A DNA stretch of 18,728 nt from a virus. Its lineage: Duplodnaviria; Heunggongvirae; Uroviricota; Caudoviricetes. This document shows, piece by piece, positions 4,233-16,108 of this stretch (within the stretch, counting starts at the first letter, position 1; the number at the start of each line of letters is the position of its first letter). A program made the translations under genes and the position numbers. A model generated the notes under the pieces. That model worked only from the letters and a program-made list of their open reading frames with translations. It was not told the origin of the DNA and made no database searches. The stretch is taken from the IMG/VR virus record IMGVR_UViG_2654588181_000008, positions 1 to 18,728 of that record. One strand, given 5' to 3'.

Positions 4233-5086
4233 GCACCATCCTGAAATGGGCGGGAAATAAAACCGCCGTAATGTCCGAACTGAAAAAACATCTTCCAGCT
4301 GGCCCGCGACTGGTTGAACCTTTCGCGGGTTCCTGTGCTGTGATGATGGAGACGGATTATCCCAGCTATCTGGTTGCGGATATTAATCCTGATTTAATCA
4401 ACCTCTATAAAAAGGTTGCCGCTGATTGTGAATCGTTTATATCTCGCGCCAGAGTTTTATTTAAGGAAGCAAACAGGGAGGTGGCTTATTACAACATAAG
4501 GCAGGAGTTTAATTACTCAACTGAAATTACTGATTTCATGAAAGCGGTATATTTCCTGTATCTCAATCGTCACGGTTACCGTGGGTTATGTCGCTATAAC
4601 AAGAGCGGGCATTTCAACATTCCCTACGGTAATTATAAAAATCCGTATTTCCCTGAAAAAGAAATTCGCGCATTTGCAGAGAAAGCCCAACGAGCAACGT
4701 TTATCTGCGCCAGCTTTGATGAAACGCTGGCGATGTTGAAGGCGGGGGATGTGGTGTATTGCGATCCGCCGTATGACGGTACGTTTTCCAGCTATCACAC
4801 TGATGGTTTCACTGAAGATGACCAGTATCACCTGGCATCCGTTCTTGAACATCGGTCATCAGAAGGACATCCGGTCATTGTTTCTAACAGTGACACATCC
4901 CTGATCCGTTCGCTGTATCGCAATTTTACTCACCACTACATCAAGGCAAAACGCAGCATCGGCGTAGCAGCTGGTGAGAGTAAATCTGCAACAGAAATCA
5001 TCGCTGTTTCTGGGGCGCGCTGCTGGGTGGGATTTGATCCTTCGCGTGGCGTGGATAGTTCTGCCGTGTACGGAGTGCGTGCATGA
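4229..5086 (+). CDS. dam: DNA adenine methyltransferase, Dam (GATC) family
   Basis: [35 protein letters not shown] and VVYCDPPY motifs, near-colinear with E. coli Dam as I recall it. ATG 4229 with GGAGG upstream and ATGA overlap with the preceding ORF; the track start at 4169 is an upstream extension. Confidence 0.9.
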
Positions 5087-7497
5087 GCCATGCTGATATG
5101 AACAACTGCAGCGGCTTTAACGAGGCCGCCGCAGCATTCTCATGGAACAGCCCGAAAAAGGCGATTAACCCTTATCTGGACCCGGCGGAAGTTGCGCCGG
5201 TTTCTGCGCTTTCAAACCTGATCACTCTGTACGCTGCCGATAACAAGCAGGAACAACTGCGCCGCGAGGCACTGAGTGATCAGGTCTGGGAGCGTTATTT
5301 CTTTAATGAATCCCGTGATCCTGTCCAGCGCGAAATGGAGCAGGATAAGCTCATTAGCCGGGCAAAGCTGGTGCATGAGCAGCAGCGTTTTAATCCGGAC
5401 ATGGTCATACTGGCGGACGTTAACGCCCAGCCTTCCCATATCAGCAAGCCGCTGATGCAACGTATTGAATACTTCAGCAGCCTGGGCAGGCCAAAGGCTT
5501 ATTCCCGCTATTTGCGTGAGACGATTAAACCATGTCTGGAACGACTGGAGCATGTACGCGACAGCCAGCTATCTGCATCTTTTCGTTTTATGGCAAGCCA
5601 TGAAGGGCTGGACGGCCTGCTGATCTTGCCTGAAATGAGTCAGGATCAGGTGAAGCGCCTGTCTACCCTTGTTGCCGCGCATATGAGCATGTGCCTTGAT
5701 GCAGCTTGTGGTGATTTGTATGCCACCGATGACGTTAAGCCAGAAGAAATCCGCAAGACATGGGAAAGGGTGGCGGCGGAAACCCTGCGTCTGGATGTCA
5801 TCCCTCCTGCGTTTGAGCAACTCCGCCGGAAAAGAAACCGCCGTAAACCCGTACCCTATGAACTCATTCCGGGTTCGCTGGCGCGTATGTTGTGCGCCGA
5901 CTGGTGGTATCGGAAATTATGGAAGATGCGTTGCGAATGGCGGGAAGAGCAGTTGCGTGCTGTTTGCCTGGTCAGCAAAAAAGCATCTCCCTATGTCAGC
6001 TATGAAGCCGTGATGCATAAACGTGAGCAGCGCCGTAAGTCGCTGGAGTTTTTCCGTTCTCATGAACTGGTGAACGAAGACGGCGACACGCTGGATATGG
6101 AGGACGTGGTAAACGCCAGTAGTAGCAACCCGGCGCATCGCCGCAATGAGATGATGGCATGTGTTAAAGGTCTGGAGCTTATCGCGGAAATGCGCGGTGA
6201 CTGCGCCGTTTTCTACACCATCACCTGTCCGTCACGTTTCCATTCCACGCTAAATAACGGCAGGCCCAACCCGACTTGGACAAATGCGACGGTAAGACAA
6301 AGCAGTGATTATCTGGTCGGCATGTTTGCTGCATTTCGTAAGGCGATGTACAAAGCCGGATTGCGCTGGTATGGCGTGCGGGTGGCTGAGCCGCATCATG
6401 ACGGTACAGTTCACTGGCACCTGTTGTGTTTTATGCGCAAAAAAGATCGCCGCGCCATTACTGCTTTGTTGCGTAAGTTTGCCATTCGTGAAGACCGCGA
6501 GGAGCTGGGTAATAACACAGGACCACGCTTTAAGTCTGAGCTGATAAACCCGCGCAAAGGTACACCAACAAGCTACATCGCGAAATACATCAGTAAGAAC
6601 ATTGACGGGTGTGGTCTGGCTGGCGAGATCAGCAAGGAAACGGGTAAATCTCTGCGTGATAACGCTGAATACGTTAATGCCTGGGCGTCTCTGCATCGTG
6701 TTCAGCAATTCCGCTTCTTTGGCATTCCGGGGCGTCAGGCTTACCGTGAACTGCGATTGCTGGCTGGTCAGGCGGCAAGGCAACAGGGTGACAAAAAAGC
6801 AGGTGCGCCGGTACTGGATAACCCGCGCCTTGATGCCATTCTGGCTGCAGCTGATGCTGGTTGCTTTGCCACCTACATCATGAAGCAGGGCGGCGTACTG
6901 GTTCCCCGTAAATATCACCTCATCAGAACCGCTTATGAAATCAACGAAGAGCCGACCGCCTATGGCGATCACGGTATTCGTATTTATGGCATCTGGTCAC
7001 CCATTGCAGAGGGCAAGATCTGCACTCATGCAGTGAAGTGGAAAATGATCCGTAAAGCCGTTGACGTTCAGGAGGCGGCAGCCGACCAGGGCGCTTGCGC
7101 CCCTTGGACTCGTGGCAATAACTGTCCCCTTGCTGAAAATTTGAACCAACAAGGGAAAGACAAATCAGCTGATGGGGACTCCATAACGGATATTACCCGT
7201 ATGAATGACAAGGAGTTGCACGATTACCTGCACAGTATGAGCAAAAAAGAGCGCCGGGAACTGGCTGCAAGGTTACGCCAGGTGAAACCGAAACGGCGTA
7301 AAGACTACAAACAGCGAATTACAGACCATCAGCGACAGCAGCTCGTCTATGAGCTGAAGTCCAGGGGATTTGATGGCAGCGAGAAAGAAGTCGATTTGCT
7401 CCTTCGCGGCGGCAGTATTCCGTCAGGAGCAGGCCTGCGTATCTTCTATCGGAACCAGCGTCTGAAGGAAGATGATAAGTGGCGGAACCTGTATTAA
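5083..7497 (+). CDS. A: Replication initiation protein A (rolling-circle endonuclease, P2 gpA family)
   Basis: 804-aa ORF containing [17 protein letters not shown] and a catalytic-tyrosine region typical of P2 gpA-like proteins; ATGA overlap with dam at 5083-5086. Confidence 0.9.
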
Positions 7498-7566
7498 TTA
7501 CGCGGGTTAACAATTCGTGCTCTTAATAATGCCAGGCATATCAGGCCGATGAACGTAAAAAAACGT

Positions 7567-7609
7567 TTTACATCAGTAAGATTATTATATACTGTAAATA
7601 TAAACAGTA
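7567..7609 (+). promoter_or_regulatory. SOS-regulated promoter: sigma70-like -35 TTTACA (7567-7572) with a LexA box TACTGTAAATATAAACAGTA (7590-7609) over the -10 region
   Basis: Perfect CTGT-N8-ACAG dyad with an AT-rich spacer, 40 bp upstream of a strong AGGAGG ribosome-binding site and ATG 7650. Confidence 0.7.
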
Positions 7610-7649
7610 GTTATGCATACAGTATTGTTTTGGTGTCATAGGAGGAAAG

Positions 7650-7838
7650 ATGCAGGACTATTTTTTGGAGTCTTTGAAGCTCCAGCGCATTGATTTTTTT
7701 CTTAAGCTTGTAGCGGCTAGTGAGTGTAGTGATGAAGAGAAGGGGCTGGCTCTGCAGTGGGTTTCTGAACTGACAGATGAACTCATGGCAAAAATCAGAA
7801 GCCACGAATACAACCGCTCAATGGATGTCATCAGCTGA
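7650..7838 (+). CDS. SOS-controlled small protein, possibly the N-terminal part of a Tum-like antirepressor
   Basis: AGGAGG 4 nt upstream of ATG 7650; 62 aa; directly downstream of the LexA box and 10 nt before the DinI-like gene. Confidence 0.55.
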   Translation: MQDYFLESLKLQRIDFFLKLVAASECSDEEKGLALQWVSELTDELMAKIRSHEYNRSMDVIS

Positions 7839-7848
7839 GGTGACTTTT

Positions 7849-8082
7849 ATGCGCATTGAAATAATGATCGATAAAGAGCAGAAGATTAGCCAGTCTACCC
7901 TGGACGCCCTTGAATCCGAGCTTTACCGCAATCTGCGCCCCCTGTATCCCAAAACGGTAATTCGCATTCGCAAAGGTAGCTCTAACGGTGTGGAACTAAC
8001 CGGACTGCAACTGGATGAAGAAAGAAAACAAGTGATGAAAATTATGCAGAAGGTGTGGGAGGACGACAGCTGGCTGCATTAA
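7849..8082 (+). CDS. DinI-like protein (DinI/MsgA family)
   Basis: MRIEIMIDKEQKISQSTLDALESELYRNL...QKVWEDDSWLH aligns by eye with E. coli DinI (MRIEVTIAK...DALAGELSRR...QETWESADDW). GAGGTG upstream of ATG 7849. Confidence 0.8.
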   Translation: MRIEIMIDKEQKISQSTLDALESELYRNLRPLYPKTVIRIRKGSSNGVELTGLQLDEERKQVMKIMQKVWEDDSWLH

Positions 8083-8090
8083 GAAACGTT

Positions 8091-8126
8091 GCCCCCAGGA
8101 GGATTCATTCTGATGGGGGCTAGTTT
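8091..8126 (+). terminator. Putative hairpin terminator after the DinI-like gene
   Basis: GCCCCCA (8091-8097) and TGGGGGC (8114-8120) form a 7-bp GC stem with a 16-nt loop, followed by TAGTTT; the T tract is weak. Confidence 0.3.
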
Positions 8127-8488
8127 GGGTAACGAGTGAAACGAGGCGTAAGGTGGGCGGCCATTTTGATAAGTGATTGTACGATTTGTGTTGTGAGTTC
8201 AACGGGTCGATGCAACGCTATCCTTAATCAAGGGCACGTTGCTCATACCCATCGATGCAATGAAAATCCATACTCATGGGGAAGACCAGAATGTCCCTGC
8301 CTTTTTCATTTTGTTCAGCACATGCACTATGGCCATTGCCTTCCCAAGCTAGCTATCGTAATCACTCAGCGTCAGTAAACTACTGAAAAATTGTTTTACC
8401 TTGTATATCAATAATGCCAAATCATACCCAAAAAATAGAAAATAATTAGATCGACAGGCAGAAGGCAATGTGAATAATCTTAAAAACC

Positions 8489-8518
8489 TTGACTGCCAGT
8501 GAGGTTTGGTTCTATAAA
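8489..8518 (+). promoter_or_regulatory. Putative sigma70 promoter for darTG (TTGACT-N18-TATAAA)
   Basis: TTGACT at 8489-8494 and TATAAA at 8513-8518, about 30 nt upstream of the darT start. Confidence 0.4.
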
Positions 8519-8549
8519 TAGACTTACGACTTTGAAAGGATGAGTTGAA

Positions 8550-9131
8550 ATGAGCGAAAGGAAAAGAATTGAAGATCAGTATCTTCTCTATCATTTAACA
8601 TGTATGGATAATCTACCTAGTATTTTAGACACAGGATTAAGATCTCGTGCATCAGTAAAAGGTGAGTTTGTTGATGTGGCCGACGGTGAAATAATAACAG
8701 GACGCGAAGCATTAAATTTGCAAACAATGGTTCCTTTTCATTTCTTTACTAAGAATCCATTTGATGGAAGAGTCCTGAAAGATCATAAGGAAAAATCATT
8801 TTGTATTATTTCGGTTTGTCGGGCATTTGCCAAAGAAAATGGTTGGAAAGTTATCCCTAAACATCCATTATCCACCAGTTCTGTTATAGACCTCTTAGAT
8901 TATGAACAAGGAATGGCCCAAATTGACTGGGAGCTTATGAATATAAGGGATTATAAAAATGCAGAATGCAAATCTGTATGTATGGCTGAGTGTTTATCAA
9001 GTGTAACGGTCGAGCCGAAAAATTTCCATTGCATCTTTGTCAAAAATGATAACGAAAAAAAATATGTTGAAAGGTTGATAAAACAACAAGGATTAAGTAT
9101 ATTGATAACGATCAACACTTATATGTTCTAA
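8550..9131 (+). CDS. darT: DarT-like ssDNA ADP-ribosyltransferase toxin (DUF4433 family)
   Basis: N-terminal LLYHLTCMDNLPSILDTGLRS matches the DarT/DUF4433 signature (LYHxTh..NL.SIL..GL) as I recall it; a C-terminal AECL segment is a candidate for the catalytic glutamate. 193 aa, AT-rich, directly followed by a macrodomain gene. Confidence 0.8.
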   Translation: MSERKRIEDQYLLYHLTCMDNLPSILDTGLRSRASVKGEFVDVADGEIITGREALNLQTMVPFHFFTKNPFDGRVLKDHKEKSFCIISVCRAFAKENGWKVIPKHPLSTSSVIDLLDYEQGMAQIDWELMNIRDYKNAECKSVCMAECLSSVTVEPKNFHCIFVKNDNEKKYVERLIKQQGLSILITINTYMF

Positions 9132-9135
9132 TTCT

Positions 9136-10107
9136 ATGATTAAGTATGCAAGCGGAAATCTTCTAAACTCTACATCGCAAGCTCTTGTGAATGCTGTAAA
9201 CTGCCAAGGAGTCATGGGAAAGGGTATCGCTTTGGCTTTTAAAGAAACTTTTCCCTATAATTTCGAAGTTTATAAGAGAGCATGCGCCACTGGTACAATG
9301 AAAATTGGACAGGTTTTAATTGTAGAGGAAAAGGGAAAAATAATTGTAAACTTTCCCACTAAAGATAGTTGGAGAAAAAAATCAACATATGATTTCATCT
9401 CGCAAGGCCTTGAATCTTTAGCAAAAATTATAGACGAAAAAAAAATTACATCAATATCAATACCACCTTTAGGCTGTGGTAATGGGGGCCTCGATTGGAA
9501 TAAGGTTGAGGCTCTTATTTTAAAAACTTTTCAAAATTTAGATAATGTTGATGTGGTAATTTATCCGCCTGCAACTAACAATCAACTTTCAAAAAATAAA
9601 AATGTTATTAATGCTAAGCATCTTTTGGTTCACTACGCCTATGGAAAATTAAAAGTTAAGCAAAAATATTCCCTTTATACAGTTTTTTATATTTGCGAAT
9701 GTATTGAGAAAGCAAATCTTTTTTTATTCGATTTTAAACATGGTCGGCCATACTCTTCTGAGTTAGAAAATATTATGAAGGATATAGCAAACCTTAAAGT
9801 TGAGTTGCAAGGAGATTTTGATGCTTTTATTGAAGATTATATTAATACTCATCAATCCAAAGAGTTACAAACCGAGTTTGGTAAACTAATCTCAACTTTA
9901 AATCCAAGTATAAGTTTGCTCAATGCTCTTAAAAATAAGATTGATTATACAGATAGCGTATATGTGATTACGAGAATTGCTAAAGAAAAAGATCATGGCT
10001 TGCATATTGACAATTTCAAAGAATATGAAAATATTGTGCAGCATTTAATTAAAAATGGATTGGTAATCGAAGATATTTTTAACGAACTAAAAATAAAGGG
10101 AAGTTAG
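9136..10107 (+). CDS. darG: DarG-like antitoxin: N-terminal macrodomain (ADP-ribosyl hydrolase) plus C-terminal domain
   Basis: GNLLNSTSQALVNAVNCQGVMGKGIALAFKETFP and PPLGCGNGGLDW are classic macrodomain motifs; starts 4 nt after darT. 323 aa. Confidence 0.8.
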   Translation: MIKYASGNLLNSTSQALVNAVNCQGVMGKGIALAFKETFPYNFEVYKRACATGTMKIGQVLIVEEKGKIIVNFPTKDSWRKKSTYDFISQGLESLAKIIDEKKITSISIPPLGCGNGGLDWNKVEALILKTFQNLDNVDVVIYPPATNNQLSKNKNVINAKHLLVHYAYGKLKVKQKYSLYTVFYICECIEKANLFLFDFKHGRPYSSELENIMKDIANLKVELQGDFDAFIEDYINTHQSKELQTEFGKLISTLNPSISLLNALKNKIDYTDSVYVITRIAKEKDHGLHIDNFKEYENIVQHLIKNGLVIEDIFNELKIKGS

Positions 10108-10713
10108 TAGCGCTATTTTCAATTTTTTTGCTGAAATTGCGCATGCACACTCTCACGCATTATAGATGCGGCGTTAATCCCGCCAGGAGTGTTGTTTAAT
10201 AAATTGAACTATTTCTGCATTGAAGGATCAACTTACGCATTCGCTGACAACGCAGGCACTCTCCTGGCTAAGCAGAAATTCAGAGTAACCAACTGGCACT
10301 TTTACAACAATTTTATTATCAGTTGCGGCTCCATGACTTTCTGGTGGGATAACAAAGCAATTAAGGCGTGGTATTGTAAGTATCCCGCATAATCATGCTA
10401 GTAACATTTGTCCCCCATGTAACCTAATTAAGGCAACTTCCGCTCTTCGCTCACAGTGAACCTCCATGTTTGTAAACCCGTATATTTCGTTTTTTAAGTG
10501 GTCATTCAGATACGGATTTTCACTTCTCTTGGCTGTGCATGACTATGCTGCATGAAATTGCATGATCGTTTGAGGATCGTTTTTGCTGAGGCCCCCCAGA
10601 ACTGGCGGGCTTTCGCTTATGTCATGCAGGTGCATGAAAATCACTGCATAAAGCGGGCAGGCGTGGCGGGGATACGAGCGCGCGTTAAGCTTCTCACATC
10701 AAGTCCAAAGTTC

Positions 10714-10742
10714 TTGCAACCCAAAAAGCTTACCTTTATCTT
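10714..10742 (+). promoter_or_regulatory. Putative sigma70 promoter for the three-gene operon (TTGCAA-N17-TATCTT)
   Basis: Hexamers at 10714-10719 and 10737-10742, about 35 nt upstream of ATG 10778; the -10 match is imperfect. Confidence 0.3.
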
Positions 10743-10777
10743 TCAATGAGATTTGTCTGCAAAAGTAAGGAAATGAA

Positions 10778-11842
10778 ATGGCAGAGAATGGCCCTATTGA
10801 AGACTTAGCAAAACGCATTTCTAACGATCTTATGAGTCGTTTTAAGTGGCAACAGCATGGCCCCTGTGACCAAGATTTCTCTTGTGATAATGAAACAAAA
10901 CATAAGCCTGAAGGTAAAAAACAAAAGCACACACACCCAGTGGATGTGGTATTTAGTTATAAAGATCCATATTTAAATAAAATTATTTATTTAAATACTG
11001 ATTTGAAAAGTTATAAGGCTGGTTCTATTAATGCAACAAAGATAGAGTCTGCATTAGAGTCTTTAGCAAAAACAATTGATTGTGCTCGATATAGCCAGGA
11101 ATGGTCAGAAAAATATAACTTTTCTCAAATTGATTTCGAAGTTCGAGGTTTATTATTTGTTTTTAATCATGATAATCAATTGCAACATGATTTTTATGAT
11201 TTCTTTAATCCTCCTAAACCTACTAAAGGAAGGAGAGATAAGGCTGTAAACTTAGAAAAGATTCCGTTATGTGCTGGTCAGCAAATTCATATAATTGATC
11301 CATTTCTTATTAATTATATGTTGGCAGTAACGAATGATATGAATGACTTAATTGCAAAAAAAGAATTTCCAGATGAGGATTATGGATTCTATTATCCTCA
11401 ACTTATTTTCCATAAGGTTGCTGTAACTGAAAAATACCTTCCTGCAACTATTGAAGTTTTGTTATCACCATTTATGATTATTAAACATGGTCCTGTTTAT
11501 AAATTCAATAGGGCTAAAGGTATTGAGGAAATGGTTTATCCAGAGGGATTTGTTATATATTACAATAGAAAAGGTAATAGCGATAATGAATTCTTTTATT
11601 TGCTAGACTTGCTTTCTAATTATCAAATTTTAGATGGTATAAATAAAATTAGAATAAGATTGGCGTATCGTGAGAAAGATAATAGAGTTATGTCGCATTT
11701 TCAGCGTGGGATCGAAAAGTATGTTCATGAGTATGGACTGGATGAAGAGGCTAAAAAGAGACTTGAAGATCTGGATGTCAAAGTTGTCTCTACTGTAAAA
11801 GAATTCTTTTCTTCTGAGGTTATTTCTTGGGAGCCGAAATGA
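10778..11842 (+). CDS. Unknown protein A of three-gene cargo operon (354 aa); possible PD-(D/E)xK-type nuclease motif near the N-terminus
   Basis: ATG 10778 with AAGGAA Shine-Dalgarno. HPVDVVF...IIYLNTDLK fits the hhhD-x(n)-(D/E)xK pattern. No Walker A and no transmembrane segment. Stop overlaps the next start as ATGA. Confidence 0.8.
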   Translation: MAENGPIEDLAKRISNDLMSRFKWQQHGPCDQDFSCDNETKHKPEGKKQKHTHPVDVVFSYKDPYLNKIIYLNTDLKSYKAGSINATKIESALESLAKTIDCARYSQEWSEKYNFSQIDFEVRGLLFVFNHDNQLQHDFYDFFNPPKPTKGRRDKAVNLEKIPLCAGQQIHIIDPFLINYMLAVTNDMNDLIAKKEFPDEDYGFYYPQLIFHKVAVTEKYLPATIEVLLSPFMIIKHGPVYKFNRAKGIEEMVYPEGFVIYYNRKGNSDNEFFYLLDLLSNYQILDGINKIRIRLAYREKDNRVMSHFQRGIEKYVHEYGLDEEAKKRLEDLDVKVVSTVKEFFSSEVISWEPK

Positions 11843-12903
11843 AAAATATTCATAGTGTAACTGACAAGGCTTTATGTGATGCTTTGAATCAAAAGCAGAT
11901 TACATTAAATGAAATACAGGATCTTTTCTTGGAAAGAGGTACTATTATTTGTAAAAAAACCCCTAGAAAAGATCTAGCCAAAAACTACTCTCGGATGACT
12001 CATGATTATTATGAACATCAGAAGATAGCAACATTACTCGGAGGTCAGACAAGAGCTGAAAAAAATACATGTGTAAGAATTGAATCTAGTGTCACTAAGG
12101 ACGATATCATAGTGGCAGCAGAGAAGTTAAAAAAAGAAATAACTGCTCAGGATGATTATTGTAAAATTATTATTGATGGTTCTCGAGTTCTTATAGATAT
12201 AAGATATCTATCGACCAATTATAGTAAAAGCGATTTTAAGCAGGCTGTAAATAAAGAAGCTTTAATTGAAATCGAGCCTATTGATAAAGGTTATAGCATC
12301 CGTCGTCCCGATAACGAGAATCTCAAAGATTATGAAGATCTCCTCCTCGGGCATATAATTTCGATTCAGAGTGAACAAGATAATGACAGTAATCTTGATT
12401 TAAAATTAAACGAAATTACTCTTGCTCATAATAGCTCCGCAGATGTTAGGACACTGTTTTTCGATAAATTAATCCGTAGCCTAGATGGATATGAATTAGA
12501 CGATGTTACGGATGCTTATGTATATCATCCAAAACCTGAAACAATAGAAGCAGAAGAGGGAAATACTGAAACTGGAGTTCATGTGTCAAAAGCATCTCTG
12601 AAAGGAGAGGGAGTTCTTAAATCTGATGAACTTAGTGATCTTTATGATAGGGGCTTTTATATCTGGAAAATAAAATGGAAGGTTAAAGAGAAACTAGCAG
12701 ACCCAGATATTTATGAACTCGAAGCTCAATTCGGAGATCCACTAAACTGTACTAATTTTTCATATTTAGTAAAAGGAGTGAAAAAATATAAGTCTAACGG
12801 TCAATATTTCAGTAAACCTCAAAAGCTTTCAGCTAGAGAAACCGATAGATTTAATAAATTAATTGAAAATAGAGCTTATTCTATTATAATGGAAATTAGC
12901 TAA
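11839..12903 (+). CDS. Unknown protein B of three-gene cargo operon (354 aa)
   Basis: ATG 11839 with GGGAG 5 nt upstream, coupled to gene A by the ATGA overlap (track start 11827 is TTG). No recognisable motifs; acidic and soluble. Confidence 0.8.
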   Translation: MKNIHSVTDKALCDALNQKQITLNEIQDLFLERGTIICKKTPRKDLAKNYSRMTHDYYEHQKIATLLGGQTRAEKNTCVRIESSVTKDDIIVAAEKLKKEITAQDDYCKIIIDGSRVLIDIRYLSTNYSKSDFKQAVNKEALIEIEPIDKGYSIRRPDNENLKDYEDLLLGHIISIQSEQDNDSNLDLKLNEITLAHNSSADVRTLFFDKLIRSLDGYELDDVTDAYVYHPKPETIEAEEGNTETGVHVSKASLKGEGVLKSDELSDLYDRGFYIWKIKWKVKEKLADPDIYELEAQFGDPLNCTNFSYLVKGVKKYKSNGQYFSKPQKLSARETDRFNKLIENRAYSIIMEIS

Positions 12904-12922
12904 TTCATCATAAGGAGTGGAT

Positions 12923-13618
12923 ATGTCACAGTTAAGATTAAAGTGGATGAGATTAAAGATCAGAACCAGTTCTGAAGCGATCTTTGATTTTATCAAAAAC
13001 ACCCCTTATTCTGATGCTATTGGTGCTGGTTTTACTAAGTTTGAAACTATTCACAATGGAATATCTGCGACTTTTAATAAAAAAACTATAATGTTGGAGC
13101 CAGTTTCTGATCCATTTGGTGATATTTTAGAGTTCGAAAGGATTGTTTTTGAACAGATTGGTTTTTCTATCCAAACATTAAGTAATAAATTATGTTTGTT
13201 GACTTTTTATAATCCTCCAAAGACAGTTAAGTCTTTTATTGATTTCTTGTCAAAAGGTGAAGGGGTAAATGTTGCCTATGGAAACTTGACGGTAGATCTC
13301 AAGGCTTTTATGAAAATAATTAGGGAGGAGTTTGGAGTCAAAGTCTTCGCCATCTCAAAGGTGAAAGTTTCAAATGTTCCTGTTACTGATAAAACAAGGG
13401 CGTGTTTAGAGCTGAATTCTAGTGGAGATGCTCTAAATGATTTGAAAAAATTTGTTTTGGATAATGATTTTAAACTCGATAAAATAAAAGTTGGGGGGCT
13501 ATATCATGACTCTAAATTTAGCTTTGAACTAACTAGTGGAGCCTCGGCAATAATTCCTGAAGAACATGTGTCGGTCTTTAATGATGCTATTTCTTATATG
13601 GAGCTTGCTAAATTTTAA
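12923..13618 (+). CDS. Unknown protein C of three-gene cargo operon (231 aa)
   Basis: ATG 12923 with AAGGAG 7 nt upstream (track start 12917 is GTG); 19 nt after gene B; followed by a strong hairpin terminator. Confidence 0.8.
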   Translation: MSQLRLKWMRLKIRTSSEAIFDFIKNTPYSDAIGAGFTKFETIHNGISATFNKKTIMLEPVSDPFGDILEFERIVFEQIGFSIQTLSNKLCLLTFYNPPKTVKSFIDFLSKGEGVNVAYGNLTVDLKAFMKIIREEFGVKVFAISKVKVSNVPVTDKTRACLELNSSGDALNDLKKFVLDNDFKLDKIKVGGLYHDSKFSFELTSGASAIIPEEHVSVFNDAISYMELAKF

Positions 13619-13625
13619 AATGTAG

Positions 13626-13660
13626 AGGGTGCCATTGCTTAAATGATGGCACCCTATTTT
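13626..13660. terminator. Rho-independent hairpin terminator, likely bidirectional
   Basis: AGGGTGCCAT (13626-13635) pairs with ATGGCACCCT (13646-13655), a 10-bp stem with a 10-nt loop, followed by ATTTTT. It sits between the convergent three-gene operon and the portal remnant. Confidence 0.6.
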
Positions 13661-13665
13661 TAAAA

Positions 13666-14316
13666 TTAGTTTATATCGTCAAATGTATATTTCATAAATT
13701 GCATGACATGGTCGCCTATCCATTCGTTTAGTTCTTTAATTCTTTGTTGTAGAGGCGTTAACTCATTACGTACAAAGACACGGCTTGCCTTCTCCACATC
13801 CCCAAAACCCCCAACATTATTAGGCATTATCCCCATCATCTGTGGCGGAACGCGATGTGCTGCCATCATGTCATCGCGGCTGACATTTTTGATATTCAGA
13901 AACTCATCCTTCGCCGCAACTTCTGACAAAGGGATGATCTGAAGGCCGTCCTTTTTGCCGTTAGGCGAGTACATAAACAGGTTGCGGAAGTTGCCTGGAC
14001 CTTTGGCGCTTTTCATCGCGTTGCGGAGGTTGTTCACGTCCTCCTGGTTCTGCGCAGCGTCGGTCATGTACATGATGAAGCCAGCATGACTGCCGTTAAT
14101 GTAATACTTTCGACGGAACAGCGTGGCAGACTCATTGAGCAGGGCGGACGGAATGGCAGAAAGATAGCCGGGCAGGCCGTAGATCTCCTGGTTAATGTCC
14201 GGTTCCATCAGATGAAAAATGCTGCCTTTCGTGAACTGATACGGCTGGGTTGTCATACCGTATTGCACAAACCAGTAGGTATTGCCTTCTGGATCACTCG
14301 TAACCAGATGGCGCAA
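13666..14316 (-). pseudogene. Q: Portal protein (P2 gpQ-like) remnant, N-terminally truncated
   Basis: 216-aa minus-strand ORF; the portal assignment rests mainly on position and orientation (first late gene, leftward, as in P2), and intact P2 Q is about 340 aa. No ATG start: the first in-frame codon is TTG, and it abuts the lysB start with an 11-nt gap. Confidence 0.55.
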
Positions 14317-14327
14317 CAGGTAGCAGC

Positions 14328-14756
14328 ATGAACCGGTTGCTGCTGGTTGTGCTGGCGTTATTACTGGCGTCGCTGGGCTGGCAGACGTGGCGGCTGGCTG
14401 ATGCCAGCCAGACCATCAGCACGCAGGCAGACGAGCTGCGGAGCAAAAGTCAGGCACTGGCAAAGAGCAACAGCCAGCTTATCAGCCTGTCCATTCTGAC
14501 TGAAACCAATAACCGGGAGCAGGCGCGGCTCTATGCCGAAGCAGAACAGACCAGCGCGCTGCTGAGACAACGACAACATCGGATTGAGGAACTGAAACGT
14601 GAGAACGAGGATTTACGCCGCTGGGCTAATACTCCTTTGCCTGCTGACATTATCCGGCTGCGGGAACGTCCGGCACTCACCGGAGGTGCAGCTTACCGTC
14701 AGTGGTTGTCCGCGAGTGACGCCGTGTCAGCTGGATCAGGCAGCGCCACACAATAA
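14328..14756 (+). CDS. lysB: LysB-like i-spanin (Rz-like)
   Basis: N-terminal transmembrane segment LLLVVLALLLASLGW followed by charged coiled-coil-like sequence; an overlapping lipoprotein ORF is embedded in another frame. Confidence 0.7.
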   Translation: MNRLLLVVLALLLASLGWQTWRLADASQTISTQADELRSKSQALAKSNSQLISLSILTETNNREQARLYAEAEQTSALLRQRQHRIEELKRENEDLRRWANTPLPADIIRLRERPALTGGAAYRQWLSASDAVSAGSGSATQ

Positions 14757-14889
14757 CGGTGATCTGAACGCATTGCTGGATGAAACGGAGGCCGCCTGGG
14801 CGGTCTGTGCAGACAAAGTGGACATGATTATTGCGTGTCAGGAGCGAAACAGTGAACAAACCACAATCCCTGCGCCACGCCCTCAATAA
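14599..14889 (+). CDS. lysC: LysC-like o-spanin (Rz1-like outer-membrane lipoprotein)
   Basis: Signal peptide MRTRIYAAGLILLCLLTLSGC with lipobox LSGC; overlaps lysB out of frame, the typical Rz/Rz1 arrangement. The start is GTG, so the exact start is uncertain. Confidence 0.6.
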   Translation: MRTRIYAAGLILLCLLTLSGCGNVRHSPEVQLTVSGCPRVTPCQLDQAAPHNNGDLNALLDETEAAWAVCADKVDMIIACQERNSEQTTIPAPRPQ

Positions 14890-15199
14890 AGCGGTGCCTT
14901 ATGTCCGTAATAACCCGGACAAACTGCATCTGTTTGTGGATAACGGTTCGCTGGTTGCCACCGGGGCCAGCTCCATGTCATGGGAGTACCGCTACACCCT
15001 GAACGTGGTGATTGAAGATTTCAGCGGCGACCAGAATCTGCTGATGGCCCCGGTTTTGCTGTGGCTGCGGGATAACCAGCCTGATGCCATCAATAACCCG
15101 ACGTTACGGGAAAAGCTATTCACATTTGAGGTGGATATTCTGCGCAACGATGTCTGTGATATCAGCCTGAACCCGAGAAGAAAGAAAGCACCACGGTGA
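14852..15199 (+). pseudogene. R: Tail completion protein R (P2 gpR-like), C-terminally truncated
   Basis: NKPQSLRHALNKAVPYVRNNPDKLHLFVDNGS...LLWLRDNQPD resembles the P2 gpR N-terminal two-thirds as I recall it; ends early after about 115 aa with an unrelated basic tail. GTG start with AGGAG upstream. Confidence 0.5.
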
Positions 15200-15564
15200 A
15201 GCGTAAGCGCAGGACTAAGAAGCAGAAGAAAGAGCCGGAAGCGAAGCAGGGCGATTACCTGGTGGGTACGGATGAAAACGTGCTGGTACTTAATCGCACT
15301 TATGCCAACCGGAGCAACGCCGAACGAGCGGCGAAAATGCAGTGGGAACGCCTGCAACGCGGCGTTGCGTCATTCTCGCTACAACTGGCAGAAGGTCGGG
15401 CAGATCTCTACACGGAAATGCCTGTGAAGGTCAGTGGCTTTAAACAGCCGATAGATGATGCGGAATGGACCATTACCACCCTGACGCATACTGTCAGCCC
15501 GGATAACGGTTTTACGACCAGTCTGGAGCTTGAAGTGAAGATTGATGATTTCGAAATTGAATGA
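15196..15564 (+). pseudogene. D: C-terminal fragment of tail protein D (P2 gpD-like)
   Basis: ORF ending ...VKVSGFKQPIDDAEWTITTLTHTVSPDNGFTTSLELEVKIDDFEIE directly upstream of ogr, where the D C-terminus sits in P2. No ATG start (GTG overlapping the R-fragment stop). Only about 120 aa against roughly 390 for an intact D. Confidence 0.45.
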
Positions 15565-15654
15565 TTCTTCGCAATGGAGAACTTTTAAGTTTTCAAAATG
15601 GAATAATGCGGTATCATTATTGTGAATTTAGCAAAAATGGGGAGAACTCGAAAA

Positions 15655-15873
15655 ATGATGATTTGCCCACTGTGTGGAAGTGCCGCCCATACTCGCAGCA
15701 GTTTTCAGGTATCTTCATTGACCAAAGAGCGTTACAACCAGTGCCAGAACATTAACTGCAGCCATACTTTTGTTACCCATGAAACTTTTGTTCGTTCGAT
15801 TGCAACGCCAAAAGAGTCAAATCCGGTTCAGCCGCATCCAATGAAATCAGGACAGGTGGCGCTCTCTCTTTGA
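15655..15873 (+). CDS. ogr: Ogr/Delta-family zinc-finger late transcription activator
   Basis: 72-aa product MMICPLCGSAAHTRSSF...KERYNQCQNINCSHTF... with the CxxC-x22-CxxxxC pattern and strong resemblance to P2 Ogr as I recall it; ATG 15655 (track start 15622 is an upstream extension). Confidence 0.9.
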   Translation: MMICPLCGSAAHTRSSFQVSSLTKERYNQCQNINCSHTFVTHETFVRSIATPKESNPVQPHPMKSGQVALSL

Positions 15874-15950
15874 CTCTGCCGCCAATTTGTCGCCATCGTT
15901 AAAAAACACTGCTTCTAACATCATGATTTTAAAAGGCATAAATTTCAGGC

Positions 15951-15996
15951 AACAAAAAACCCATCAACCTTGAACCGAAATGGCGGGGTTGATGGG
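15951..15996 (-). terminator. Rho-independent terminator of ybjL
   Basis: CCCATCAACC (15960-15969) pairs with GGTTGATGGG (15987-15996); an A run on the plus strand at 15951-15959 gives a T run after the hairpin on the minus strand, downstream of ybjL. Confidence 0.5.
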
Positions 15997-16108
15997 CTCC
16001 ACAAAATGGGGACATCAAAGAAAAGCAGTGGCACTAATTAAGACTGATGCCCTGCGGAAAAGTTCTGCGGTTGTGCAAAAAAATTTCATTTTCAGGGCAA
16101 CTTCAGTT

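What the first reader, a model, noticed from the sequence alone, without database searches (positions are those of the whole stretch)
14852..15564. Deletion junction 2: R fragment abuts a D C-terminal fragment, whole tail gene block missing
The gpR-like ORF diverges from the expected sequence after about 110 residues and stops at 15199. An ORF without an ATG that ends like the C-terminus of tail protein D begins at 15196 and runs to just before ogr. In P2 the tail genes S, V, W, J, I, H, G, FI, FII, E, T, U and most of D lie between these points, so the element cannot make virions and is a domesticated remnant.
Basis: partly seen in the sequence, partly recalled or inferred. Interest (0 to 1): 0.45.

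Follow-up and report, generated by a model that had tools for sequence, protein, structure and literature searches.

The report
Tail-gene deletion scar in P2-like prophage
This is the scar of a 13-kb deletion that removed the whole tail-gene block from a P2-like prophage of E. coli, an ordinary kind of prophage decay, with one unexplained oddity: the same junction arose a second time in a separate lineage.

Summary
Window 14852-15199 encodes gpR residues 1-107 of 143, then eight out-of-frame residues and a stop. Window 15169-15564 is the last 131 codons of gpD (366 aa). The two pieces meet at a 5-bp microhomology, GAACC (15169-15173).

An intact prophage at the same chromosomal site (rcdA / rybB-ybjL) in E. 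coli Br_178_kylling is 100% identical to window 7051-15815, apart from two deletions of 6,697 bp and 13,147 bp. The second is this junction. It removes the end of R, S, V, W, J, I, H, the tail-fibre assembly genes, the invertase, FI, FII, E, T, U and D codons 1-235.

The element (16,038 bp between att sites) cannot make virions. "Domesticated" is not shown: there are no substitutions since the deletion, the junction is absent from 5,426 complete E. coli genomes, and this variant occurs in one assembly.

The same R'::'D junction occurs in 12 further draft contigs on flanks that differ by 3-4%. Each of those flanks is identical to an uninterrupted R or D gene elsewhere, so I read this as an independent recurrence. 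The D-side end is also shared by deletions with other left partners. The cause of this hotspot is unresolved. This is an ordinary kind of feature of modest interest.

The parts
14852..15199 (+). R' : truncated tail completion gene R. Codons 1-107 of 143 are native (to 15173). Eight out-of-frame codons (PRRKKAPR) and a TGA follow.
   Evidence: Pfam PF06891 E=3.2e-40, profile 2-106/133. Identical to residues 1-107 of the intact R of N18-04097. 894/894 nt identical to Br_178_kylling up to 15173.
15169..15173 (.). Junction 2: 5-bp microhomology GAACC, shared by the R-side and D-side parent sequences. The crossover lies within or beside it.
   Evidence: Three-way alignments with both parent sites. 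Random junctions reach 5 bp or more in 0.58% of cases.
15174..15564 (+). 'D : 3' fragment of tail/baseplate hub gene D. D codons 236-366 start inside the microhomology at 15169. The longest ORF with a start codon is GTG 15196-15564 (122 aa), and that GTG overlaps the R' stop (GTGA).
   Evidence: Pfam PF05954 profile 220-302/305. 395/396 nt identical to the 3' end of intact D in N18-04097 and 100% identical to Br_178_kylling over this stretch.
15590..15617 (+). Promoter-like site in the D-ogr spacer, at the position of the P2 ogr promoter.
   Evidence: Consensus scan. P2 annotation places the -35/-10 of ogr just after D. Inference only.
15655..15873 (+). ogr: intact late-gene activator, 72 aa.
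   Evidence: Pfam PF04606 E=6.7e-22. 51% identical to P2 Ogr over 72 aa. Called as a 72-aa gene in the source contig.
15938..15964 (.). attR core. Its partner, attL, lies about 100 bp left of the window start. The start-to-start spacing is 16,038 bp.
   Evidence: Direct repeat D2 in the source contig. Corresponds to the annotated attR of phage 4LV2017.
14283..14851 (+). The rest of the 894-bp island left between the two deletions: the last 49 nt of lysA, lysB (14328-14756) and lysC (14641-14889). It has no late promoter.
   Evidence: 100% identical to Br_178_kylling. Pfam LysC hit. Gene calls in the source contig. No promoter-like site on the + strand upstream.
14280..14282 (.). Junction 1: a portal (Q) 3' fragment on the minus strand (13666-14282) joined to the 3' end of lysA. 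Microhomology TAT. Deletes 6,697 bp.

Best explanation
Window 14852-15564 is the scar of one 13,147-bp deletion inside a P2-like (Peduoviridae, 186-type early region) prophage. The prophage is integrated at the 3' end of rybB, between rcdA and ybjL.

Shown: the deletion joined R codon 107 to D codon 236 at a 5-bp microhomology (GAACC). It removed the 3' end of R, then S, V, W, J, I, H, the tail-fibre assembly and invertible-segment genes, the invertase, FI, FII, E/E', T, U and D codons 1-235. The join is out of frame. R' ends after eight foreign codons, and 'D is left without its own start.

Inferred: all four Ogr-dependent late promoters lie inside this deletion or the neighbouring 6,697-bp one. 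The fragments are therefore most likely silent and functionless.

Inferred: the event was short-homology illegitimate recombination (template switching or end joining). It happened at a stretch of D, just upstream of a purine run, that breaks repeatedly in related prophages.

The deletion is recent. Together with junction 1 it leaves a 16-kb element that cannot form particles or lyse the cell. The element still carries att sites, integrase, repressor, replication genes, a cos-like site, DarTG, a 3HP-like defence system and ogr.
For: - Two-block homology with four intact relatives, meeting at 15169-15173.
- 100% identity to the Br_178_kylling prophage at the same chromosomal site across 7051-15815, apart from the two deletions.
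- Gene content of the deleted segment taken from that record's annotation and from P2.
- R' and 'D translations against the intact proteins. Pfam partial-profile matches.
- A microhomology of 5 bp is reached by 0.58% of random junctions.
- No promoter-like site lies upstream of lysB-R'-'D.
- The junction is present in two contigs of different length classes, both traced to sample GCA_900103855.1.
- The D end at this position is reused with other left partners: gpA, after FI, and after FII.
- Small 8-nt and 4-nt deletions occur in the adjacent purine run in other strains.
Against: - No reads were available, so the junction rests on assemblies.
- Simple microhomology does not explain the choice of partner. 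Four GAACCCG sites that would give 7 bp of homology lie in the deleted region and were not used. The same R site was used twice independently.
- That the fragments are silent is inferred from promoter positions, not measured.
- No significant single-strand structure at the break sites supports a stalling model.
Confidence: 0.85

Rival explanations
1. The deletion was made by the prophage's own Din-family serine invertase, encoded inside the deleted block. It would have acted on two directly oriented secondary ('quasi') crossover sites: TCAGCCTGAACC-TG in R and TACCCGCGAACC-CG in D. The 13-kb segment would have been excised as a circle. The same junction would then recur because the sites are conserved.
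For: - The natural crossover sites of these prophages are TTCTCCCAAACC AA GGTATGTGAGAA and TTCTCCCAAACC AA CGTTTAAGAAAA.
- In a weight matrix built from their half-sites, the D site ranks 49th and the R site 337th of 35,834 positions, in the register where the core follows AACC.
- Only 0.03-0.11% of all position pairs sharing a 5-mer score as well.
- Of the 33 GAACC sites to the left of D, the two seen as partners (R and downstream of FII) rank 4th and 5th, about 2% by chance.
- The junction recurs independently.
- Quasi-site recombination and localized conversion at unequal central dinucleotides by Cin are cited in PMC4134206, refs 50-51.
Against: - The hypothesis was formed after seeing the sequence, and the matrix comes from seven half-sites.
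- The right half-sites are poor, and the central dinucleotides differ (TG against CG).
- In L047 the crossover must lie to the left of the last C of AACC, which is incompatible with a fixed core after AACC. The gpA and FI partner sites rank about 7,500-8,000.
- The second hot end in D (TA(C)|ACGGGCG), junction 1, and the BL21 junction 7 nt away do not resemble invertase sites.
- From my own knowledge, wild-type invertases strongly favour inversion over deletion.
Confidence: 0.18
2. The remnant is kept because it is useful. Either it serves as a fixed defence island (DarTG plus 3HP-like), or it is a helper-dependent, satellite-like element. It keeps att sites, int, replication genes, a cos-like site and the Ogr activator, so a co-infecting P2-like phage could package it. 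On this reading the junction is part of a selected architecture.
For: - Defence genes are intact and 100% identical to those of an intact prophage.
- A cos-like 19-mer GGCGTGGCGGGGATACGAG at 10660-10678 aligns with the P2 cos region.
- Both att sites are present, 16,038 bp apart, which is about half a P2-type genome.
- ogr is intact.
- Defective P2-like elements with conserved defence genes are described in PMC13586616.
- The upstream ORFs R' and, in L045, gpA' both stop at the same TGA, which overlaps the GTG of 'D.
Against: - There are no substitutions since the deletion, so nothing shows selection.
- This variant is found in one assembly. The second lineage with the same junction has lost cos, the defence genes and half of gpA.
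- No capsid-size genes of the P4 type are present.
- Mobilisation and expression were not tested.
Confidence: 0.1
3. The junction is an assembly artefact, a false join of two contigs, and the strain carries an intact prophage.
For: Only assemblies were seen, with no reads. Both contigs carrying the exact R' protein trace to one sample.
Against: - A 5-bp overlap is far too short to mislead an assembler.
- The contig is 199,891 bp, and the junction also appears in a second contig of a different length class.
- The same junction is present in 12 further contigs from other assemblies.
- A second, independent junction lies 890 bp away in the same contig.
Confidence: 0.02
4. Both ORFs are complete genes of other families that merely resemble R and D.
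For: None found.
Against: Both are 100% identical at nucleotide level to parts of longer, uninterrupted R (143 aa) and D (366 aa) genes. The Pfam matches cover only part of each profile.
Confidence: 0

Closest known systems
Defective P2-like prophage of E. coli B (BL21/REL606 lineage), at the same rcdA-ybjL site
   Same: Same integration site and same phage type. It also lost FI-U and the 5' two-thirds of D in a deletion whose right end lies in the same short stretch of D (7 nt from this one). It also keeps 'D-ogr-attR and has a second deletion in the head/lysis region.
   Different: The left partner is the invertase gene rather than R, with 1-nt microhomology. R, S, V-I and the tail-fibre genes are still present. 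The hotspot cargo differs (retron RT).
Cryptic prophage PR-X of E. coli K-12 (yegZ 'D pseudogene plus ogrK, next to cyaR)
   Same: A P2-type remnant that keeps a 3' fragment of D, an intact ogr and the right attachment site, overlapping the 3' end of an sRNA gene.
   Different: Different chromosomal site (cyaR, not rybB). Only 629 bp remain and the D fragment is 219 nt. No integrase, replication or defence genes.
Incomplete P2-like prophages with conserved defence genes (PMC13586616, 2026; hotspot described in PMC9122126, 2022)
   Same: Structural or mobility genes are lost, while the defence genes in the cos-proximal hotspot between gpA and gpQ stay nearly identical to those of intact phages.
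   Different: Those papers describe the class statistically. They do not describe this junction or recurrent breakpoints in D. I found no mention of either in the passages I read.
Intact prophage of E. coli Br_178_kylling (NZ_CP182383.1) and relatives (genera Wadgaonvirus and Elveevirus in the phage records hit)
   Same: Same site, and 100% identical over window 7051-15815 outside the deletions. Same DarTG plus 3HP-like cargo.
   Different: Complete head, lysis and tail modules, about 19.8 kb more. The integrase and immunity region is only 89-93% identical, so it is a mosaic relative and not the direct parent.
Cin/Gin/Hin quasi-site recombination
   Same: A secondary site resembling the ...AAACC half-site lies next to the break, and the invertase gene was present in cis before the deletion.
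   Different: Poor right half-sites, unequal central dinucleotides, and deletion rather than inversion. Other junctions at the same D end do not fit.

Membership tests
P2-like prophage (Peduoviridae) | P2 gene order: int - repressor/early genes - A - cos-proximal hotspot - Q ... lysis - R ... D - ogr - att | tested here: met
   The retained segments are collinear with phage 4LV2017, N18-04097 and Br_178_kylling and with the P2 map.
P2-like prophage (Peduoviridae) | Bounded by attL/attR direct repeats, with a tyrosine integrase next to attL | tested here: met
   27-nt repeat, 16,038 bp apart. A 350-aa integrase carrying PF00589.
P2-like prophage (Peduoviridae) | Complete set of head, lysis and tail genes, i.e. 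an intact, plaque-forming prophage | tested here: not met
   6,697 bp and 13,147 bp are missing relative to the intact relative. Absent genes are P, O, N, M, L, X, holin, endolysin, S, V, W, J, I, H, G, FI, FII, E, T and U. Q, lysA, R and D are truncated.
gpR tail completion protein (PF06891) | Full-length domain (profile of 133 positions; intact protein 143 aa) | tested here: not met
   Only profile positions 2-106 are matched. Residues 108-143 are replaced by eight foreign residues.
gpD baseplate hub (PF05954) | Score above the curated cut-off and coverage of the 305-position profile | tested here: not met
   29.0 bits against a cut-off of 30.1. Profile positions 220-302 only. 131 of 366 codons remain.
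Domesticated (selected) defective prophage | Persistence across diverged lineages by vertical descent, with a signature of purifying selection | tested here: not met
   No substitutions against an intact phage. Absent from 5,426 complete genomes. This variant is in one assembly. The second lineage with the same junction has different flanks and different content.
P4-like satellite | cos site, Ogr/Delta-type activator and integrase | tested here: met
   The cos assignment rests on an 80% match over 45 nt to the P2 cos region.
P4-like satellite | P4 alpha primase-helicase and capsid-size or decoration genes (sid, psu) | tested here: not met
   Replication is by P2-type gpA (PF05840). No gene in the 16-kb element other than P2-type and defence genes was found. 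sid and psu were not searched for by profile.
Din-invertase quasi-site deletion | Both break sites resemble the 26-bp crossover site, with the crossover at the central dinucleotide | tested here: inconclusive
   The left half-sites score well, in the top 0.14% and 0.94%. The right halves are poor and the cores are TG against CG. Other junctions at the same D end are incompatible with that register.
Din-invertase quasi-site deletion | Dependence on the invertase | not testable with these tools
   Needs a genetic test in an intact lysogen.

The most novel reading that the evidence does not exclude
A short stretch of gene D, just upstream of the purine-rich linker, and to a lesser degree one site in R, is a sequence-specific deletion hotspot. 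Through it, P2-like prophages at the rybB site repeatedly lose their tail module with nucleotide-identical junctions. The driver would be a defined mechanism, either the phage's own tail-fibre invertase acting at quasi-sites or a site-specific replication arrest with template switching. If so, 'grounding' of these prophages would be predisposed by their own sequence and not random decay.
Probability: 0.3. Interest if true: 0.5.

Novelty: new member of a known kind. Interest (0 to 1): 0.25.

Why it matters
By itself the junction only tells an annotator three things. The two ORFs are pseudogene fragments. The 16-kb element is a defective P2-like prophage. The defence genes beside it (DarTG, 3HP-like) now sit in a non-lytic element.

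The wider point is that the deletion can be dated as very recent and reconstructed base by base from an intact twin at the same locus. The same junction, and the same D-side end with other partners, also turn up independently. If that recurrence reflects a defined mechanism, it would give a concrete, testable route by which temperate phages of this family become fixed, defence-carrying islands.

Tried and rejected
1. **The P2 cos 19-mer.** A search with up to 3 mismatches found nothing. The cos-like site was found only by aligning the P2 cos region.
2. **Collection scans for the junction.** Scans of IMG/VR and JGI metagenomes with two patterns found nothing.
3. **A pattern for junctions at the second D site.** It returned 22 hits, of which 21 were intact D genes with a synonymous GCT codon. 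Only L032 was a real junction.
4. **Single-strand DNA folding of the three break regions.** z-scores were +0.8, -0.2 and -1.3, so there is no structural explanation.
5. **Invertase-site matrix on the TA-type junction sites and junction 1.** The ranks looked random.
6. **Single origin of junction 2 spread by homologous recombination.** Rejected. The two lineages differ at SNPs 4 nt and 3 nt from the junction, and each matches its own intact relatives.
7. **P0002, a 109-aa R variant.** It is not a deletion junction, because S and the tail genes follow it in that contig. It looks like a frameshift in an otherwise intact prophage.
8. **Chi-site, Int-core and restriction-site explanations for the fixed ends.** I considered these by eye and dropped them for lack of any match. 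No tool test was run.
9. **Counts of genomes matching the 5' versus the 3' part of D** (1,114 versus 1,317). These are too confounded by sequence divergence and by K-12-type remnants to use.
10. **Literature search for rybB as a P2-type attachment site.** It found nothing specific.

Full report
**What is in the window.** The window is a P2-like prophage remnant with its right chromosomal flank.
- From the left: integrase, a 186-type CI repressor, early genes, a Dam-type methylase and gpA (5083-7497).
- Then DarT and DarG (8550-10107), a conserved 155-bp segment, and three genes matching the PADLOC models Hp1, Hp2 and Hp3 (10778-13618).
- Then a portal fragment on the minus strand (13666-14282), lysB, lysC, the R fragment, the D fragment and ogr.
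- The flank carries ybjL, ybjM and grxA.
- The flank is 100% identical to E. coli EC596.
- The source is contig FNIS01000007.1 of NCBI assembly GCA_900103855.1. Its R' protein, SDO10521.1, is labelled Shigella sonnei.

**The observation.**
- R' (GTG 14852 to TGA 15199) matches the gpR profile over positions 2-106 of 133 (E=3e-40).
- 'D (ORF 15196-15564) matches the last third of the gpD profile.
- ogr is complete.
- Against four intact relatives the window splits into two blocks that overlap by 5 bp at 15169-15173.
- The three-way alignment shows the left parent reading ...CAGCCTGAACC|TGCAGCTG and the right parent ...ACCCGCGAACC|CGAGAAGAAAG. The window reads ...CAGCCTGAACCCGAGAAGAAAG.
- R' is identical to residues 1-107 of the intact 143-aa protein. 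It then runs out of frame through D sequence for eight codons (PRRKKAPR) to a TGA.
- That TGA overlaps GTG 15196, which is D codon 245. D-derived sequence begins at D codon 236 of 366.
- Against P2 itself, R' aligns to R 1-107 (52% identity) and 'D to D 267-382 of 387 (56%).

**An intact copy at the same site.** E. coli Br_178_kylling (NZ_CP182383.1) carries a complete prophage between rcdA and ybjL with the same DarTG plus Hp1-3 cargo.
- Window 7051-15815 is identical to it base for base, except for two gaps.
- The first gap is 6,697 bp (microhomology TAT, window 14280-14282).
- The second gap is 13,147 bp (microhomology GAACC).
- By that record's annotation, the second gap holds the 3' end of R, S, V, W, J, I, the tail-fibre and assembly genes with their invertible segment, the invertase, sheath, tube, E, E', tape measure, U and D codons 1-235.
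- The first gap holds the 5' part of the portal gene, both terminase genes, scaffold, capsid, L, X, holin, lysozyme and most of lysA.
- The integrase and immunity region is only 89-93% identical, so this prophage is a mosaic relative, not the literal parent.
- Other complete or nearly complete prophages at the same site are in N18-04097, 2015C-3905 and MB20.

**What is left, and whether it works.**
- The element is 16,038 bp between 27-nt att repeats.
- In P2 the late promoters lie between P and O, upstream of V, and upstream of FI. All three intervals fall inside the two deletions.
- No promoter-like site lies upstream of lysB-lysC-R'-'D, and a strong terminator-like hairpin (13626-13655) follows the Hp3-like gene.
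- I therefore infer that R' and 'D are silent pseudogene fragments. This was not measured.
- The element cannot build heads or tails and has no holin or endolysin.

**Is it domesticated?** There is no evidence either way from sequence divergence, because there is none.
- Neither junction occurs in 5,426 complete E. coli genomes, in IMG/VR, or in JGI metagenomes.
- The exact R' protein occurs in two contigs, both traced to the one sample. The gpA look-up finds only the one contig.
- Defective P2-like elements that keep near-identical defence genes are a described class. Whether they are domesticated is left open by the authors themselves (PMC13586616).

**The unexpected part: the same junction again.**
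- A 115-aa protein that differs from R' by one residue and has the same PRRKKAPR tail occurs in 12 further contigs.
- In these (L011-L013) the element sits at the same site but is smaller. gpA is cut after about 434 codons and joined to the end of lysC, so the defence genes, cos and the portal fragment are gone. The R'::'D junction is at the same position.
- Their R' and 'D flanks differ from the window at 12 of 377 and 14 of 391 positions, including positions 15169 and 15176, which are 4 and 3 nt from the join.
- Their R' flank is 100% identical to an uninterrupted R gene in EC596.
- Their 'D flank is 100% identical to the 3' end of a full-length D in MB20 and two other genomes.
- The window's flanks are 100% identical to uninterrupted genes in Br_178_kylling.
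- Homologous exchange cannot swap alleles that close to a deletion joint, so I conclude the junction arose twice.

**Recurrent ends in D.** Look-ups of the two D' ORFs found more defective prophages at this locus.

| D-side end (intact-prophage coordinates) | Left partner | Where seen |
|---|---|---|
| 38643-38648, GAACC\|CGAGAAG | R | the window; independently L011-L013 |
| same | gpA | L045 |
| same | just after the FI stop codon | L047 |
| same | just after the FII terminator | L049 |
| 38607, TA(C)\|ACGGGCG (41 nt upstream) | the portal gene | L015, L017 |
| same | the O/N boundary | L018 |
| same | the invertase gene | L019, L032 |
| same | CII | L046 |

- The portal-side end of L015 and L017 is the same as that of the window's junction 1.
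- Small 8-nt and 4-nt deletions occur in the adjoining purine run in two other strains.
- These look-ups are biased toward ends near the ORF starts.
- A spread sample of complete genomes also shows D ends at about 38544, 38636/7, 38710 and 38908. The 38636/7 end belongs to the classic defective prophage of E. coli B (BL21), where the invertase gene is joined to D with 1-nt microhomology.
- So the two sites are recurrent but not exclusive.

**Mechanism of the deletion.**
- A 5-bp microhomology is non-random: 0.58% of random junctions reach it. Some short-homology process is therefore the base case.
- Homology length alone does not explain the partner. Of 33 GAACC sites to the left of D, four are GAACCCG and went unused.
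- I tested the idea that the prophage's own Din-type invertase used quasi-sites.
  - For: with a matrix built from the natural sites, the D site ranks 49th and the R site 337th of 35,834 positions. Only 0.03-0.11% of 5-mer-sharing pairs do as well. The two GAACC partners that were used rank 4th and 5th of 33.
  - Against: the right half-sites are poor and the central dinucleotides differ. The L047 crossover is in the wrong register. The gpA, FI, TA-type and BL21 junction sites do not resemble invertase sites.
  - I put this model at about 0.2.
- Single-strand folding gives no support for a hairpin-driven mechanism.
- The cause of the recurrent ends remains unexplained.

**Comparison with what is known, and verdict.**
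- The feature is a deletion scar in a defective P2-like prophage. This is a well-known kind of object: the K-12 PR-X remnant, the E. coli B prophage, and the class described in PMC13586616.
- It is a new instance, not a new kind.
- Interest is low to modest, and comes only from the independent recurrence of the junction and the reused D ends.

Noticed in passing
window 14280-14282 (portal fragment 13666-14282, minus strand): A second deletion junction. The 3' 617 nt of the portal gene are joined to the last 49 nt of lysA through the microhomology TAT. 6,697 bp are missing (terminases, scaffold, capsid, L, X, holin, lysozyme). The portal-side end is the same, to the base, as in two other remnants (L015, L017), where it is joined to D instead.
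   Followed up: yes
L011-L013 (NCBI drafts GCA_031541185.1, GCA_907172385.1, GCA_027551285.1), junction at about L011:10319-10325: The same R'::'D junction on flanks that differ from the window by 3-4%. Each flank is identical to an uninterrupted gene elsewhere, so this appears to be an independent recurrence. These elements have also lost gpA codons from about 435 onward, the defence genes, cos, the portal fragment and lysB.
   Followed up: yes
L015, L017, L018, L019, L032, L045, L046, L047, L049 (positions): Gene D has two reused deletion ends 41 nt apart: TA(C)|ACGGGCG and GAACC|CGAGAAG. Each is joined to four or more different left partners in different defective prophages at the rcdA/rybB-ybjL site. 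The mechanism is unexplained, and the sample is biased by how it was found.
   Followed up: partly
window 10660-10678, within the conserved segment 10535-10691: A cos-like 19-mer, GGCGTGGCGGGGATACGAG. It matches the P2 cos region at 36 of 45 nt and lies in a segment conserved in four related phages. It sits between the DarTG genes and the Hp1-3 genes, so defence cargo lies on both sides of cos, and the remnant still has a packaging site.
   Followed up: partly
window 8550-10107 and 10778-13618: Defence cargo in the gpA-gpQ hotspot. DarT (E=1e-36) and DarG (E=2e-79) are followed by three genes matching PADLOC Hp1, Hp2 and Hp3 (E=1e-64, 2e-39, 1e-10), which I take to be the '3HP' system. The first of the three carries a PD-(D/E)XK-type Pfam hit. 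All are 100% identical to the intact Br_178_kylling prophage.
   Followed up: partly
window 15951-16029 (minus strand) and attR 15938-15964: The sRNA gene rybB (Rfam RF00110, 105 bits, full length) overlaps the attR core by 14 nt. This phage type therefore integrates into the 3' end of rybB and rebuilds it, much as the K-12 PR-X remnant abuts cyaR.
   Followed up: partly
L010 (E. coli EC596, NZ_CP156718.1) and L053 (E. coli BL21, NZ_CP170101.1): Two further, independently decayed P2-like prophages at the same site. EC596 has gpA' joined to lysB/lysC, a 39-codon 'D, an integrase with an internal stop, and an AAA-ATPase/DUF4435 insert between S and V. BL21 has O' joined to a lysozyme fragment and the invertase joined to 'D. 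All keep ogr.
   Followed up: partly
L044 (E. coli JP538, AP025180.1) near 6001; L048 (SRR10254100) near 5828: Otherwise intact prophages in which D is split by an 8-nt or a 4-nt deletion inside or beside the GAGAAGAAAGAAAG run. This is the same spot as the window's D-side break, which suggests the run is prone to slippage.
   Followed up: no
protein P0012 (E. coli O7:K1 CE10, WP_001039940.1): A 170-aa R protein with a 27-residue tandem duplication. Its joint follows ...CDISLN, the same codon at which R is broken in the window. This was seen at protein level only.
   Followed up: no
L019:3381-3384 and L032 (IMG/VR UViG 3300029214_000257): In another remnant, a CII fragment is joined to sequence that starts 2 nt outside the natural 26-bp invertase crossover site (TTCTCCCAAACC AA CGTTTAAGAAAA).
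   Followed up: no
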